The notes below the pieces were generated by a model that saw only the letters and a list, made by a program, of their open reading frames with translations, was not told where the DNA came from and did not search any database. Below are positions 811-28,217 of a DNA stretch of 43,024 nucleotides, piece by piece; the stretch's first letter is position 1, and each line of letters starts with the position of its first letter. Position numbers and translations under genes: made by a program. Origin of the DNA: Candidatus Enterousia sp. (lineage in GTDB: Bacteria > Pseudomonadota > Alphaproteobacteria > Rs-D84); assembly GCA_045635705.1 (NCBI GenBank), contig JAZTWE010000001.1, forward strand, positions 1 through 43,024. The letters run 5' to 3'.

Positions 811-1275
811 CTATTCACCAAACACAATTTGAACAGAATTTGTTCCGTTTATTCCATCACAACTGCCAGATGCACCACCTGTCTTGCCATCAGACAGCTT
901 ATACCCAACAGAATCGGACCACGCCTTGGCAATTAACGCCTTGCATTCAGACTGCCCCAATCCATTGATTGTTACAACAAATTGACGTGAATTAGATGGA
1001 TCAACACCCAATACATATGTACCACCATACGGATTCTTGTCAGACATCCCAATTACACTGAAAATCGTAGATCCATCCATACTTGAAAAATCATCATATT
1101 CCGCATGAATATTACGCACCATTGTAACCATCTGAACAACTTCATCATTAACAGCGGTCAATTTCTGTGTCCGCATCGCAGTCGAAATCATACCAATTGC
1201 CCCAACAGTGATAACGCCCATAATTGCCAGCACCCCCAGCATTTCAATCATTGAACGACCTGATTCTTGTATCAT
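811..1275 (-). CDS. Type IV prepilin-like protein (major pilin candidate, R64 PilS-like role)
   Basis: MIQESG|RSMIEMLGVLAIMGVITVGAIG: a short leader ending in Gly, Glu at +5, and a roughly 20-aa hydrophobic helix. A C-terminal Cys pair (SEC...GSC) resembles a pilin D-region. A GGGGG SD precedes the ATG at 1275; the ORF track start at 1287 is 4 codons upstream. Confidence 0.7.
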   Translation of the reverse strand: MIQESGRSMIEMLGVLAIMGVITVGAIGMISTAMRTQKLTAVNDEVVQMVTMVRNIHAEYDDFSSMDGSTIFSVIGMSDKNPYGGTYVLGVDPSNSRQFVVTINGLGQSECKALIAKAWSDSVGYKLSDGKTGGASGSCDGINGTNSVQIVFGE

Positions 1276-1323
1276 AAATACCCCCATTTGCTATTTAGTC
1301 TTTTATATTCTATCATAAAGATT

Positions 1324-2742
1324 ATGAATATTCAATTTTCTGATTTGATTGCAAACGCGCCGAACGCCCCAGGCATATACCGCATGTTTGACATTGACGG
1401 CACCCTGCTGTATGTCGGCAAGGCCAAGAATTTGGCCAAACGCCTGCAACAATACACTGACATATCAAAATTAGAATTACACAAACAGGTAATGCGCACA
1501 CTGGTCACACGCGTTGATTGGGAAATCGTTCCAACAGAATCCGATGCATTGCTTCGGGAACAAGAGTTAATAAAAACCCTAAAACCCAAATACAACATCA
1601 TGCTAACCGATGGCAAGATGTATCCAATGCTGGCATTAACTGCGCACGAATATCCACGACTATTAAAATTTCGCGGACGCATTTCCCAGCGTCGCGATAT
1701 CTATGGTCCATACCCATCGGTATCGGCATTAAACGAAACAATAAAAACGATACAAAAGGTATGCCAAATTCGCACCTGTACCGACACATTTATGCGCAAC
1801 CGCACCCGTCCATGTTTATTACACCAAATTGGTCGGTGCAGCGCACCATGTTGCATACCACAAATCAAAAAATATGCAGAAAGCGTGCGTATAGCGCGAA
1901 AAATCTTGACCGGTGACAGCGAACCAATTATCGCCGACTTGAACAAACAGATGAACACATTTTCACAACAAATGGATTATGAAAATGCCGCCATTGCGCG
2001 CGATAAAATCATCGCACTCACCCACACATCAAATCGCGGTATACGCACAGTTTCAAGACATAGCGCGAATTTAGACTGGGACAAAAATGTATCAGAACTG
2101 GAAAAATGGATTGGCGTAAAAATCGAATCTGCCGCGGTATTTGATAATTCACATCTGTTCGGCAAACAGCCCGTTGGCGCAATGATAACATTTGGTCACG
2201 ACGGTTTTATTAAATCAGGATACCGCCATTTCAAACTGTTGGATAAATCCCGCGCCGGCAATGATATTGCAATGATGGCTGAATTTGTTCGTCGCGCAAC
2301 ACAACGCGACACAAATACAAGTTTGATAATCGTTGATGGTGGACGTGCCCAATGGAACATTGCCAGCCGTAATTCTAATGGCATCCCTGTAATGGGCATT
2401 ACCAAGGGCGTTGTACGCGACGGCGACGAACACTTTATTTTACCCGACGGTACCGAATCGCACGACCTGGCCAAGGACAGTCCGCTGTTCCTGATGCTGC
2501 GCGCGGTTCGCGACGAAGCGCACAGATTCGTAATTACATATCACCGCAACACACGCGCAAAGCAGATGACTGCATCTGTACTGGATGAAATTGACGGCAT
2601 TGGCCCATCGCGCAAGCGCGCCCTGTTGCAGCACTTTGGGTCAGTACACGCGATTATGGATGCCGACCTGCGTGCATTACAAAAAGTTCCCGGGCTGGGA
2701 AAAAGTGCCGCCGAAAAAATATATGCCCATTTTCATCAATAA
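1324..2742 (+). CDS. uvrC: Excinuclease ABC subunit C (compact, about 472 aa)
   Basis: GIY-YIG motif (GIYRMFDIDGTLLYVGKAKNLAKRL), Cys cluster (CQIRTC...CLLHQIGRCSAPC), UVR domain (MDYENAAIARDKI), endonuclease region (DNSHLFG...DGGRAQ) and C-terminal (HhH)2 (IDGIGPSRKRALLQHFGS...VPGLGKSAAEKIY). The likely start is MNIQFSD at 1324, inside track ORF 1267..2742. Confidence 0.9.
   Translation: MNIQFSDLIANAPNAPGIYRMFDIDGTLLYVGKAKNLAKRLQQYTDISKLELHKQVMRTLVTRVDWEIVPTESDALLREQELIKTLKPKYNIMLTDGKMYPMLALTAHEYPRLLKFRGRISQRRDIYGPYPSVSALNETIKTIQKVCQIRTCTDTFMRNRTRPCLLHQIGRCSAPCCIPQIKKYAESVRIARKILTGDSEPIIADLNKQMNTFSQQMDYENAAIARDKIIALTHTSNRGIRTVSRHSANLDWDKNVSELEKWIGVKIESAAVFDNSHLFGKQPVGAMITFGHDGFIKSGYRHFKLLDKSRAGNDIAMMAEFVRRATQRDTNTSLIIVDGGRAQWNIASRNSNGIPVMGITKGVVRDGDEHFILPDGTESHDLAKDSPLFLMLRAVRDEAHRFVITYHRNTRAKQMTASVLDEIDGIGPSRKRALLQHFGSVHAIMDADLRALQKVPGLGKSAAEKIYAHFHQ
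1885..1898 (-). repeat. Copy (13/14) of the dispersed 14-mer CGCGCTATACGCAT, inside uvrC
   Basis: The plus strand reads gtgcgtatagcgcg, the reverse complement of CGCGCTATACGCAc. Confidence 0.8.
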
Positions 2743-27266: not shown

Positions 27267-27299
27267 TTATTTTTCTCCTACGGAATCGGTATCAATATT

Positions 27300-28217
27300 T
27301 TATTCTTCGTTCGTGGACACAACCAAAACCCTGTTCCCCTTATAGAATTTCGCGTATGGTACAGGCATCGCGCGCCCAAAATTACGAACCAAGGCCGACG
27401 CCACATCAACAAAGCGGCCCTTGAAAACGGCACTGGCTTCAATCGGATATTCACGTGCGGTTGTCCACACCAGGTCCCAGCCTTCTTTATCACACCACGA
27501 CTGCAACACTTCACGCAGTGTCTGACCATTTGCAACGACCCATGAACGAACCTGGTCGGTCAGGTTAACTGGCGCTTCGGCATCCGCAGATACCGCAACT
27601 GCAATCTCTGCCTCTGCCCCATTATCGACAACAACTTCATCCTGGGCGACAATCGCCGCAATTTCTGCATCTGTTTTTCCGCTTTTCGCCAAGAACGCAG
27701 TATAACCATCGGCATATGTATTGCACACCTTGCGCCCACTGCGCGACACGGCCAACACATTACCGCCATCATCTTCCAACACTTCGCGATGCAGCAACGG
27801 CATTTCAGAAACATTATTGCATTCATCGGCAAAGCCCACAGGAATCTGATTCCCGTGCAACATATTTGCCCCACCAGACCACCCTGCAAATTCGCCACGC
27901 GCACCTAAATTGAAATTATTTTCAACAACCAAGTCCGCACCAATTTTCGAAACAATGCGAATATTATCGTCTGACTTCTTGGAACAAGACACGCCTTCGC
28001 ACGACACCGTCACATCAGCATCAGACCCCGCCAACGGCCACGCCGGCACATCGGCATACATATCAACAACCTCTACCTGGACATCAGTGTTTTCATCAAC
28101 AATCTTTTCCTGGGTATAAAACACTTCGGATGTGACGACCTGGGGCAATGATTCCGCAGCAAAGCAATAACCCGCCGCAGTCGCAAACATTGCAACAATC
28201 AAAATTTTACGGAACAT
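27300..28217 (-). CDS. PilL/TcpQ-like periplasmic pilus biogenesis protein
   Basis: Signal peptide MFRKILIVAMFATAAGYCFA. The C-terminus (SWVVANGQTLREVLQSWCDKEGWDLVWTTAREYPIEASAVFKGRFVDVASALVRNF) fits the TcpQ-domain pattern (W.l..G.tLre.L..W..kaGW.l.W....dy.i.....f.G.F..A...L). It lies directly upstream of the secretin. Confidence 0.5.
   Translation of the reverse strand: MFRKILIVAMFATAAGYCFAAESLPQVVTSEVFYTQEKIVDENTDVQVEVVDMYADVPAWPLAGSDADVTVSCEGVSCSKKSDDNIRIVSKIGADLVVENNFNLGARGEFAGWSGGANMLHGNQIPVGFADECNNVSEMPLLHREVLEDDGGNVLAVSRSGRKVCNTYADGYTAFLAKSGKTDAEIAAIVAQDEVVVDNGAEAEIAVAVSADAEAPVNLTDQVRSWVVANGQTLREVLQSWCDKEGWDLVWTTAREYPIEASAVFKGRFVDVASALVRNFGRAMPVPYAKFYKGNRVLVVSTNEE

What the first reader, a model, noticed from the sequence alone, without database searches (positions are those of the whole stretch)
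811..28217. R64 thin-pilus-type (type IVb) machinery is chromosomal, split into three subloci and embedded among core genes
Gene content and order match the plasmid R64 / ICE pil cluster:
- PilL/TcpQ-like protein plus lipoprotein secretin (28217-25638).
- PilO-like, PilP-like, GspE-family ATPase and GspF-family platform (11291-6649), in that order.
- A prepilin with a short leader and Glu+5 (1275-811).

These clusters are normally contiguous and carried on conjugative plasmids or ICEs. Here the pieces are separated by uvrC, pgsA, tolB, fba, dnaA, dprA, plsY and rpsT, and no integrase, relaxase or transposase is visible.

Not found in the window: a PilM-like protein, a prepilin peptidase, a retraction ATPase, or a PilV-type adhesin with shufflon.

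This suggests a domesticated type IVb pilus with a new role, such as host or prey attachment or DNA uptake, in a reduced genome.
Basis: partly seen in the sequence, partly recalled or inferred. Interest (0 to 1): 0.6.

Follow-up and report, generated by a model that had tools for sequence, protein, structure and literature searches.

The report
Chromosomal type IVb pilus, gene cluster split
A tiny-genome gut bacterium (Candidatus Enterousia) carries, as ordinary inherited chromosomal genes, a complete and well-conserved pilus machine of the kind best known from conjugative plasmids. It probably uses it to hold on to other cells, and the odd three-part layout is a local gene reshuffle rather than a new kind of machine.

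Summary
On the minus strand the window encodes:
- PilL (TcpQ domain) and a PilN-family lipoprotein secretin at 28217-25638;
- PilO, PilP, the ATPase (PilQ) and the platform (PilR) at 11291-6649;
- a PilS-type prepilin at 1275-811.

Core genes lie between these blocks. The ATPase and secretin match type IVb proteins (BfpD, BfpB, PilN family) far better than T2SS or type IVa proteins.

The genome is Candidatus Enterousia, in the alphaproteobacterial order Rs-D84, with genomes of about 0.9 Mb. The secretin was found in 40 of 41 relatives, across six families. In four other families pilL-N-O-P-Q-R is contiguous. The break between pilN and pilO was seen only in Enterousia, and no mobile-element genes were found.

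All seven genes are under purifying selection (dN/dS 0.05-0.18). The parts missing from the window exist elsewhere in the genome: a short A24 prepilin peptidase and three PilV-like giant pilins. PilM and a retraction ATPase were not found.

The function is inferred, not shown. Cell-cell adhesion is the likeliest role and DNA uptake is the main rival.

Chromosomal R64-variant clusters are already described, and PilN-type secretins are common in sampled Alphaproteobacteria. The earlier scan had already noted the unlinked PilV-like operon in this genome.

The parts
811..1275 (-). pilS-like major prepilin. It is 154 aa from the ATG used by most orthologues; the ORF could extend to 1287.
   Evidence: Class III signal MIQESG|RSMIEMLGVLAI, with invariant Gly-1, Arg+1 and Glu+5 and two conserved Cys. 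30% identity, E 2e-13, to the Pfam PilS/Bundlin-positive pilin of the sister ICE-like cluster, which has the same G|RTMIEM motif. AF2 model pLDDT 77.6; the top Foldseek hits are the type IVb pilins TcpA, CofA and S. Typhi PilS, but weakly (E about 1e-3, TM 0.4-0.6). dN/dS 0.14.
6614..6629 (.). Two-way terminator-like hairpin just after pilR.
   Evidence: Consensus scan: 6-bp stem with 5 GC pairs and T-runs on both strands. This is a pattern match only.
6649..7764 (-). pilR: inner-membrane platform protein (GspF/T2SSF family).
   Evidence: PF00482 91 bits in two stretches. It is the only T2SSF gene in the genome. tblastn gives Bosea PilR 220 bits, BfpE 179, IncI1 PilR 103, and no hit for HofC or GspF at 1e-3. 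dN/dS 0.06-0.13.
7728..9359 (-). pilQ: assembly ATPase of the type IVb clade.
   Evidence: PF00437 213 bits. Against solved structures: BfpD 273 bits over the full length, GspE 160, PilF 151, PilB 130. In the tree it falls inside the type IVb clade, separated from GspE and HofB with SH-aLRT 100. dN/dS 0.05-0.07.
9377..10039 (-). pilP: periplasmic linker with a signal peptide and a coiled coil.
   Evidence: TIGR03021 34.5 bits, cut-off 34.65. hhalign against IncI1, IncI2 and ICE-like PilP gives probability 98.3%, E 1.7e-14. It sits between pilO and pilQ as in the reference clusters.
10029..11291 (-). pilO (PilO2/PAP_PilO family). The likely start is the TTG at 11291, preceded by AGAGAGA.
   Evidence: PF06864 24.8 bits here; orthologues score 41-71 bits, full length in one. 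Bosea PilO2 matches by tblastn at E 8e-13. The start was read from the sequence and from where orthologue alignments begin.
11319..11348 (-). Promoter-like site for pilOPQR.
   Evidence: TTGCCA, 18-nt spacer, TG-TATAAT: 11 of 12 matches, the best on this strand in 500-12000. Pattern match only.
25638..27266 (-). pilN: lipoprotein secretin of the type IVb (PilN/BfpB) family.
   Evidence: TIGR02520 235 bits against MshL 94. BfpB is the only solved-structure match, 145 bits. Lipobox VGGC. It is the only secretin in the genome. dN/dS 0.06.
27300..28217 (-). pilL: exported protein with a C-terminal TcpQ domain, the secretin's partner.
   Evidence: PF10671 64.8 bits at residues 224-302. BfpG and Bosea TcpQ-family proteins match by tblastn. 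Signal peptide present. It lies 33 nt upstream of pilN. dN/dS 0.07-0.10.
28250..28277 (-). Promoter-like site for pilL-pilN.
   Evidence: TGCACA, 16-nt spacer, TG-TATAAT: 10 of 12 matches. Pattern match only.

Best explanation
The window holds the core of an intact type IVb pilus of the R64/ICE ('PilL-N-O-P-Q-R-S-V') variant. It is an inherited chromosomal feature of the alphaproteobacterial order Rs-D84, not cargo of a mobile element.

**Ancestry (shown).** The ancestral layout in the order is one contiguous pilL-N-O-P-Q-R block. The pilin, peptidase and PilV-like genes are unlinked. In Candidatus Enterousia a rearrangement cut the block between pilN and pilO, and each piece now has its own promoter-like site.

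**How it would work (inferred from family knowledge).**
1. A short A24 peptidase encoded on another contig removes a 6-residue leader from the PilS-type prepilin at Gly|Arg.
2. The PilQ ATPase drives the PilR platform to assemble pilins.
3. PilO and PilP tie the inner-membrane motor to the PilN lipoprotein secretin and its TcpQ-domain partner PilL.
4. Three PilV-like giant pilins encoded elsewhere would sit at the tip as adhesins.
5. There is no dedicated retraction ATPase.

**Likeliest role (inference only).** The pilus probably mediates attachment to a partner cell or surface. R64 and PAPI-1 thin pili bind recipient-cell LPS in this way. This would suit an organism predicted to depend on partners for metabolites.

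**On the confidence figure.** It is a blend: about 0.9 for the identity and inheritance of the machine, about 0.5 for the adhesion role.
For: **Identity**
- Family hits for all six machinery proteins.
- BfpD and BfpB are the best or only solved relatives.
- In the ATPase tree the type IVb clade is separated from GspE and HofB at 100*. The Rs-D84 sequences form one clade (99*). Their sisters P0247, P0248 and P0252 sit in TcpQ-Secretin-PAP_PilO-x-T2SSE-T2SSF clusters. The P0252 cluster continues with PilS-PilM-Shufflon_N genes.
- The pilin is homologous to that cluster's PilS and shares its G|R-x-M-I-E-M motif.
- A giant pilin on contig C6 matches that cluster's PilV (E 1e-11) and IncI2 PilV (E 3e-8).

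**Inheritance**
- The secretin was found in 40 of 41 genomes covering six families of the order.
- The block is contiguous in four families and flanked there by core genes: porin, QueH, HU, AccA/AccD, FabG, a class I (Trp/Tyr-type) tRNA synthetase.
- The block is split in Enterousia. None of the 80 best-matching loci around pilQ, with up to 9 kb of flank each, contains pilL or pilN. All are Enterousia-like gut MAGs, many titled only 'Alphaproteobacteria bacterium'. In a two-contig relative the two blocks are 141 kb apart on one contig.

**Function retained**
- dN/dS is 0.05-0.18 for all seven genes.
- The genome has a single secretin and a single platform gene.
- An A24 peptidase of 160 aa without a methyltransferase domain is present.

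**Lifestyle and the adhesion analogy**
- Rs-D84 bacteria are predicted to be partner-dependent (PMC12306168).
- The ICE-type IVb pilus recognises recipient LPS (PMC5297154).
Against: - No expression, filament or binding data exist. The adhesion role rests on analogy and on PilV-like genes that lie on another contig of a MAG that is 80% complete.
- PilM and a PilT2-type ATPase, present in related ICE and Burkholderia clusters, were not found.
- The pilin is smaller (148 aa mature) and has a much shorter leader than classical type IVb pilins. Its fold match to type IVb pilins is weak.
- The window's secretin, PilO and PilP scores are below the curated cut-offs.
- ComEC and DprA are present, so DNA uptake cannot be excluded.
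Confidence: 0.7

Rival explanations
1. The same type IVb machine serves mainly as a DNA-uptake (competence) pilus. It would bring DNA through the PilN secretin for ComEC import and DprA loading, as a source of nucleotides or for recombination in a genome that lacks biosynthetic pathways.
For: - dprA lies in the window at 21169-22191, and ComEC is present on C12 at 174 bits.
- In relative G028, ComEC lies two genes downstream of pilR on the same strand.
- PilN is the only secretin in the genome.
Against: - No ComEA-type HHH_3 protein passes the cut-off in any of 41 genomes of the order, whereas 11 of 14 control genomes do.
- No retraction ATPase was found. The second T2SSE-family gene is VirB11.
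- The proposed uptake-like 14-mer has only 4 exact copies in 811 kb, all on this contig, three of them at or just past gene ends.
- To my knowledge no R64, Bfp or Tcp-type pilus is known to take up DNA.
- A T4SS (VirB4, VirB11, VirD4) is an alternative route.
Confidence: 0.2
2. The machine works chiefly as a secretion device, as the TCP and CFA/III pili export TcpF and CofJ. It would release some of the many cysteine-rich exported proteins encoded in this genome, two of which flank the pil blocks.
For: - No T2SS is present: the genome has one secretin and one platform gene.
- Cys-rich exported ORFs lie next to pilR (5889-6608) and pilN (24258-25298) (note e1-4541457).
Against: - The neighbour of pilN is not at that site in the relative G003, where only about 660 bp separate pilN and rpsT. 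The link is therefore not conserved.
- Flanks of pilOPQR vary among 80 Enterousia-like loci.
- No homologue of TcpF or CofJ was sought or found.
Confidence: 0.07
3. The genes are remnants of a recently integrated conjugative plasmid or ICE that is being broken up and is decaying.
For: - The closest clusters outside the order are on ICE-like or plasmid-like DNA, next to TrbC or on a Bosea megaplasmid.
- In G028 a VirD4 gene abuts pilL, as in IncI2 plasmids.
Against: - The system is present across the order, and the Rs-D84 ATPases form a single clade.
- All reading frames are intact and dN/dS is 0.05-0.18.
- Core-gene flanks are conserved between species.
- No integrase, relaxase or transposase family was detected among the window's ORFs that were scanned.
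- GC content is even across the window.
Confidence: 0.03
4. It is a type II secretion system or a type IVa or Tad pilus mislabelled as type IVb. Public records call the ATPase 'TadA'.
For: - NCBIfam's best ATPase models are GspE (221 bits) and PilB (188 bits), because no PilQ/BfpD model matched.
- NCBI names relatives 'Flp pilus assembly complex ATPase component TadA'.
Against: - BfpD scores 273 bits against 160 for GspE.
- The tree separates the clade from GspE and HofB at 100*.
- The TadA-type model scores only 33 bits.
- The secretin matches the PilN family and BfpB only.
- TcpQ, PAP_PilO and PilP are present.
- No GspC, GspL, GspM or PilM, PilN, PilO (type IVa) hits were seen among the scanned ORFs.
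Confidence: 0.02

Closest known systems
ICE and chromosomal 'R64 thin-pilus variant' type IVb clusters: PAPI-1 PilL2-N2-O2-P2-Q2-R2-S2-T2-V2-M2 (from my own knowledge) and Burkholderia pseudomallei Tfp7 (PMC3984277, PMC5297154)
   Same: - Same gene families in the same order: TcpQ/PilL, PilN lipoprotein secretin, PilO2 (PF06864), PilP, ATPase, platform, with no pilM between pilL and pilN.
- PilS-type pilin sharing the G|R-x-M-I-E-M signal with a sister ICE-like cluster.
- PilV-type large pilins.
- The peptidase can be encoded outside the cluster.

   Different: - PilM and the PilT2 ATPase were not found, and Shufflon_N was not matched.
- The pilin leader is about 6 aa instead of about 25, and the mature pilin is smaller.
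- The pilin, the PilV-like genes and the peptidase are unlinked from the machinery.
- The machinery is fixed across a whole order of roughly 1-Mb genomes and is split in Enterousia.
R64/IncI1 and IncI2 plasmid thin pilus (pilI-V)
   Same: Homologous PilL, PilN, PilO, PilP, PilQ and PilR in the same order, and a PilV relative.
   Different: - IncI PilQ and PilR are more distant than BfpD/BfpE or the Bosea proteins: 150-166 bits against 269-315 for the ATPase. They fall outside the 47-row clade that holds Rs-D84.
- IncI1 has pilM between pilL and pilN, and also has pilT, pilU, a shufflon and rci.
- IncI clusters are plasmid-borne and serve liquid mating.
Bundle-forming pilus of enteropathogenic E. 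coli (BfpG-B-C-U-D-E)
   Same: - BfpD and BfpB are the best solved-structure relatives of the ATPase and the secretin.
- BfpG carries the TcpQ domain.
- The gene order is parallel.

   Different: - BfpC does not match PF06864, whereas the Rs-D84 PilO proteins do.
- Bfp has the retraction ATPase BfpF, which is absent here.
- BfpD sits on a long branch, so its exact placement is unsure.
Scattered rvh-type T4SS genes of Rickettsiales (from my own knowledge)
   Same: An envelope-spanning machine encoded in several dispersed islets in a reduced alphaproteobacterial genome. This genome's own VirB4, VirB11 and VirD4 genes are also dispersed.
   Different: It is a different machine. This is an analogy for gene scattering only.

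Membership tests
Type IVb pilus, R64/ICE variant | Lipoprotein secretin of the PilN/BfpB family | tested here: met
   TIGR02520 is the best family at 235 bits (below its 287.65 cut-off) against MshL at 94. BfpB is the only solved-structure match. A VGGC lipobox is present.
Type IVb pilus, R64/ICE variant | TcpQ-domain protein (PilL) encoded next to the secretin | tested here: met
   PF10671 at 64.8 bits (cut-off 27). The gene lies 33 nt upstream of pilN. Its architecture matches IncI1 PilL.
Type IVb pilus, R64/ICE variant | PilO2 accessory protein (PF06864) | tested here: met
   The window protein scores 24.8 bits (cut-off 26.7). Five orthologues score 41-71 bits. BfpC gives no match.
Type IVb pilus, R64/ICE variant | PilP between pilO and the ATPase gene | tested here: met
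   TIGR03021 at 34.5 bits against a cut-off of 34.65; hhalign probability 98.3%.
Type IVb pilus, R64/ICE variant | ATPase and platform in the type IVb clade, not T2SS, type IVa or Tad | tested here: met
   BfpD 273 bits against GspE 160. The tree separates the clade at 100*. The only outgroups were E. coli GspE and HofB; TcpT, MshE, PilB and TadA were not in the tree.
Type IVb pilus, R64/ICE variant | PilS-type major pilin (long leader, non-Phe +1, large D-region) | tested here: inconclusive
   - Homologous to a PilS/Bundlin-positive pilin (E 2e-13), and +1 is Arg.
- But the leader is only about 6 aa, there is no Pfam PilS hit, and the fold match to TcpA, CofA and PilS is weak.

Type IVb pilus, R64/ICE variant | PilV-type large minor pilin or adhesin | tested here: met
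   Giant pilins on contig C6 match ICE-like PilV (E 1e-11) and IncI2 PilV (E 3e-8). Pfam Shufflon_N itself was not matched.
Type IVb pilus, R64/ICE variant | Dedicated prepilin peptidase (PilU-like, no methyltransferase domain) | tested here: met
   C41:1000-1482, 160 aa, Peptidase_A24 only. Whether it processes this pilin was not tested.
Type IVb pilus, R64/ICE variant | PilM lipoprotein, and PilT (transglycosylase) or PilT2 (ATPase) | tested here: not met
   - PF07419 gives a best score of 14.6 bits in an unrelated 454-aa frame.
- The only other T2SSE gene is VirB11.
- The IncI PilT and BfpH transglycosylases gave no tblastn hit.
- The genome is 80% complete.

Type IVb pilus, R64/ICE variant | Carried on a conjugative plasmid or ICE | tested here: not met
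   Present across the order, flanked by core genes, with no mobile-element families. This is a usual context rather than a strict defining feature (PMC3984277).
Type II secretion system | GspD-type secretin plus GspC/L/M and GspG-K pseudopilins | tested here: not met
   The secretin does not match GspD-type models, K-12 GspD, GspF and GspG gave no tblastn hit, and the only pilin-like genes are the PilS and PilV types.
Tad/Flp (type IVc) pilus | TadA/CpaF ATPase, TadB/C, RcpA, Flp pilin | tested here: not met
   The TadA-type model scores 33 bits against 221 for GspE and 273 for BfpD. The public 'TadA' label is a misnomer.

The most novel reading that the evidence does not exclude
Rs-D84 bacteria may have domesticated a whole conjugation-type contact apparatus. 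It would consist of the thin type IVb pilus, hard-wired PilV-like tip adhesins and a dispersed VirB/VirD4 T4SS. They would use it to latch on to other gut bacteria (or host cells) and draw metabolites or DNA from them. That would make it a proteobacterial counterpart of the pilus-dependent epibiotic lifestyle of Patescibacteria.
Probability: 0.2. Interest if true: 0.75.

Novelty: new member of a known kind. Interest (0 to 1): 0.42.

Why it matters
Enterousia and the wider Rs-D84 order are widespread, uncultured gut bacteria with genomes of about 0.9 Mb. The one genomic survey read here reports type IV pili only for a different lineage, and proposes a partner-dependent life for Rs-D84 without naming a contact organelle (PMC12306168).

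This work shows that a complete, strongly conserved type IVb pilus is part of the order's core gene set. That gives a concrete candidate for how these cells attach. It also gives usable markers for imaging, enrichment or metatranscriptomics: the pilin, the PilV-like adhesins and the PilN secretin.

Two smaller points follow:
- Public annotation of the ATPase as 'TadA' is wrong.
- The three-part layout documents how an operon for an envelope machine can be broken apart in a shrinking genome without loss of function.

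Tried and rejected
- **PilM candidate upstream of pilO (11373-11825, minus strand).** The translation is low-complexity, has no family hit, and is overlapped by a better ORF on the plus strand. Rejected.
- **Second T2SSE-family ATPase (contig C6) as a retraction ATPase.** It is VirB11 (147 bits, full length). 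Rejected.
- **Shufflon_N and PilM family searches of the whole genome.** No match, or 14.6 bits.
- **DNA-uptake sequence idea.** CGCGCTATACGCAT has 4 exact copies, all on this contig, and 17 copies with up to 2 mismatches. The most frequent 12-mers are terminator stems.
- **ComEA search.** Nothing over the cut-off in the genome or in 40 relatives.
- **The search for homologous proteins with the ATPase.** It returned only Enterousia-like sequences, so it did not help placement. The search of 50%-identity cluster representatives was used instead.
- **Second pilin copy on C26.** The pilin-rluC stretch is 76% identical in nucleotides to the end of this contig, and the rest of C26 is unique. I could not tell whether it is a paralogue or a piece of a co-binned relative. 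The two-contig relative G003 has one major pilin.

Full report
**1. What is in the window**

- **pilL, 27300-28217.** An exported 305-aa protein whose last 80 residues are a TcpQ domain (64.8 bits). IncI1 PilL has the same architecture.
- **pilN, 25638-27266.** It starts 33 nt after pilL ends. It is a secretin with a VGGC lipobox. Its best family by far is the PilN type IVB family, at 235 bits against 94 for MshL. Its only solved relative is BfpB (145 bits).
- **pilO, 10029-11291.** It scores 24.8 bits on PAP_PilO, just under the 26.7 cut-off. Its orthologues in five relatives score 41-71 bits.
- **pilP, 9377-10039.** It scores 34.5 bits on TIGR03021 against a cut-off of 34.65. A profile-profile match to IncI1, IncI2 and ICE-like PilP gives probability 98.3%, E 1.7e-14.
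- **pilQ, 7728-9359.** The ATPase, T2SSE at 213 bits.
- **pilR, 6649-7764.** The platform, T2SSF at 91 bits.
- **The prepilin, 811-1275.** It reads MIQESG|RSMIEMLGVLAI.

In the second block, pilO overlaps pilP, pilQ overlaps pilR, and 17 nt separate pilP from pilQ. The genes between the blocks are uvrC, pgsA, tolB, a class II aldolase, dnaA, dprA, plsY and rpsT. The remaining ORFs have no mobile-element family. GC content is even across the window.

**2. Which kind of machine it is**

The ATPase matches BfpD over its full length at 273 bits. GspE scores 160, PilF 151 and PilB 130.

By tblastn the order of similarity is as follows:

| Protein | Bosea megaplasmid | Bfp | K-12 GspE / GspF | IncI1 | IncI2 | K-12 HofB / HofC |
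|---|---|---|---|---|---|---|
| ATPase | 315 | 269 (BfpD) | 179 (GspE) | 166 | 150 | 142 (HofB) |
| Platform | 220 | 179 (BfpE) | no hit (GspF) | 103 | 79 | no hit (HofC) |

I built a maximum-likelihood tree of 67 ATPases (quick search, SH-aLRT support). They comprised:
- the window sequence and five Rs-D84 relatives;
- a sample of the best-scoring 50%-identity cluster representatives;
- six references: BfpD, the Bosea ATPase, IncI1 and IncI2 PilQ, and E. coli GspE and HofB.

The tree shows four things:
- All type IVb-like sequences are separated from GspE and HofB at 100.
- The six Rs-D84 sequences form one clade at 99.
- That clade falls within a larger clade (99) that also holds BfpD and the Bosea protein.
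- The IncI plasmid PilQ proteins fall outside that larger clade.

The nearest outside relatives sit in clusters of the same build:
- P0247 lies in a TcpQ, Secretin, PAP_PilO, unnamed, T2SSE, T2SSF cluster next to TrbC.
- P0252 lies in the same series followed by a PilS/Bundlin pilin, PilM and a Shufflon_N protein. This is the ICE-type order, with no pilM between pilL and pilN.

The Rs-D84 PilO proteins match PF06864, whereas BfpC does not. This places the system in the R64/ICE variant rather than the Bfp variant, in the terms of PMC3984277.

*Caveats.* The tree was a quick search. BfpD is on a long branch. I had no TcpT, MshE, PilB or TadA sequences to include.

**3. The pilin**

In 28 relatives from five families, Gly-1, Arg+1, Glu+5 and one cysteine are invariant. 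A second cysteine is conserved in more than 90% of them.

Most orthologues begin at the second ATG, which gives a 6-residue leader. The PilS of the P0252 cluster carries the same G|RTMIEM motif behind a 25-residue leader. It aligns to the window pilin at 30% identity over 121 residues, E 2e-13. The unusual Arg+1 is therefore a trait of this PilS subclade, and the short leader is the derived feature.

An AlphaFold model (pLDDT 77.6) finds TcpA, CofA and Salmonella Typhi PilS first. The scores are weak, however (E about 1e-3, TM 0.4-0.6).

**4. The rest of the genome**

The assembly is 811 kb in 47 contigs and 80% complete.

| Feature | Result |
|---|---|
| Secretin genes | one |
| Platform genes | one |
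| T2SSE genes over the cut-off | two: pilQ and a VirB11 (147 bits) |
| Retraction ATPase | not found |
| Prepilin peptidase | 160 aa, A24 domain only, on C41 |
| Further pilins on C6 | a small pilin and three pilins of 400-490 aa |
| PilM, Shufflon_N | not found |
| ComEC | present on C12 |
| VirB4, VirD4 | present on C11 and C21 |
| ComEA-type protein | none over the cut-off in this genome or 40 relatives |

One of the large C6 pilins matches the ICE-like PilV at E 1e-11 and IncI2 PilV at E 3e-8. The machinery is the one in this window.

**5. Whose genome, and how the layout arose**

Record titles of the closest loci name Candidatus Enterousia and gut MAGs from ruminants, birds and humans. 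The genus belongs to the alphaproteobacterial order Rs-D84, whose members all have reduced genomes (PMC12306168).

- The secretin was found in 40 of 41 sampled relatives, covering six families. The one miss is a 70%-complete assembly.
- In four other families (G040, G028, G025, G030), tblastn finds pilL, N, O, Q and R, and pilP in three of them, adjacent on one strand. Where I scanned the neighbouring ORFs (G040 and G028), they are porin, QueH, HU, AccD/AccA, FabG, ComEC, a class I (Trp/Tyr-type) tRNA synthetase and, in one case, VirD4.
- In Enterousia the block is cut between pilN and pilO. None of the 80 best-matching loci around pilQ, with up to 9 kb of flank each, contains pilL or pilN.
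- In the two-contig relative G003, pilOPQR, pilLN and pilS lie at about 30, 175 and 192 kb of one 515-kb contig. The pilLN flanks (sufB... and rpsT-plsY) and the pilS flanks (uvrC-pgsA and rluC) are the same as here.
- plsY also neighbours pilL in G025. pilLN therefore probably stayed in place while pilOPQR moved. This is an inference.
- The major pilin is unlinked from the machinery in all five genomes checked.
- A near-consensus promoter-like site (TTGCCA, 18 nt, TG-TATAAT) lies 28 nt upstream of the TTG start of pilO, which follows an AGAGAGA stretch. Weaker promoter-like sites precede pilL and the pilin gene. A two-way hairpin follows pilR. These are pattern matches only.

**6. Is it functional?**

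All frames are intact. Nei-Gojobori dN/dS against several congeners is as follows, at dS above 1:

| Genes | dN/dS |
|---|---|
| pilQ, pilN | 0.05-0.07 |
| pilL, pilR | 0.06-0.13 |
| pilO, pilP, pilS | 0.13-0.18 |

This is strong purifying selection, so the decaying-remnant reading is rejected.

**7. What it most likely does**

Shown:
- There is a complete set of assembly genes, one peptidase, PilS-type pilins and PilV-type large pilins.
- These genes are conserved across an order of bacteria predicted to live off partners.

Inferred:
- The pilus is an adhesion organelle whose PilV-like subunits bind another cell's surface, as the PAPI-1 thin pilus binds recipient LPS (PMC5297154).

The main rival is DNA uptake, suggested by ComEC and DprA. 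It is weakened by three results. No ComEA was found in 41 genomes. No retraction ATPase was found. The proposed uptake-like 14-mer has only four exact copies in 811 kb. A TcpF/CofJ-like secretion role is possible but has no conserved support.

**8. How new is it?**

- A chromosomal R64-variant operon is already described in Burkholderia pseudomallei (PMC3984277).
- In an even sample of about 300 alphaproteobacterial genomes, 35 have a PilN-family secretin match of 200 bits or more. Many of these are 1-2.5 Mb genomes. A further such match is in the unpublished genome G080, which I do not count and on which no claim here rests.
- The survey of Rs-D84 genomes reports type IV pili only for an unrelated verrucomicrobial family (PMC12306168). 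A text search for 'Rs-D84' with 'pili' found no description of this system.

It is therefore a new, order-wide member of a known kind. Its particular features are a lineage-specific split, a shortened pilin leader and the apparent loss of PilM and PilT2.

Noticed in passing
window 16718-17659 (+): This is a clear class II fructose-bisphosphate aldolase (PRK07084, 390 bits). The published survey states that Rs-D84 genomes lack fructose-bisphosphate aldolase (PMC12306168).
   Followed up: no
window 3407, 32929, 37072 (+), 41628 (-): The 14-mer CGCGCTATACGCAT has 4 exact copies in the whole 811-kb assembly, all on this contig. Two sit between a stop codon and a terminator hairpin. It does not behave as a genome-wide uptake sequence, and why it is confined to this contig is unexplained.
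   Followed up: partly
G000 contig C26:1-1306 versus window 2-1321: A second pilin-rluC stretch is 76% identical in nucleotides to the end of this contig (pilin 76% identical in amino acids, dS about 1.1). The rest of C26 is unique in the assembly. It may be a diverged paralogue or a fragment of a co-binned relative.
   Followed up: partly
G000 C6:24156-25151, C11:about 2513-3028, C21:15800-17812; L032:13250-15382: There is a dispersed T4SS gene set: VirB11, VirB4 and the VirD4 coupling protein. In relative G028, VirD4 abuts pilL, the same adjacency as virD4-pilN on IncI2 plasmids. ComEC lies two genes after pilR there.
   Followed up: partly
relative G025 (several contigs; L127): This genome has 18 pilin-like frames with the GRSMIEMLGVL motif, including tandem small pilins and several frames of 500 aa or more. 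That is a marked expansion compared with 1-2 hits to this query in each of the other four relatives checked.
   Followed up: no
The one after pilN is absent from the same site in relative G003.
   Followed up: partly
window 7728-9359 (-) and its public relatives: NCBI records name this ATPase 'Flp pilus assembly complex ATPase component TadA'. The TadA-type model scores 33 bits against 273 bits for BfpD, so the label is misleading.
   Followed up: yes
window 19571-20851 (-) and 1267-2742 (+): DnaA scores well below its family cut-off (253 against 344 bits). UvrC is short (491 aa against model lengths of 567-698) and matches in two stretches. Core proteins of this lineage are unusually divergent.
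   Followed up: no
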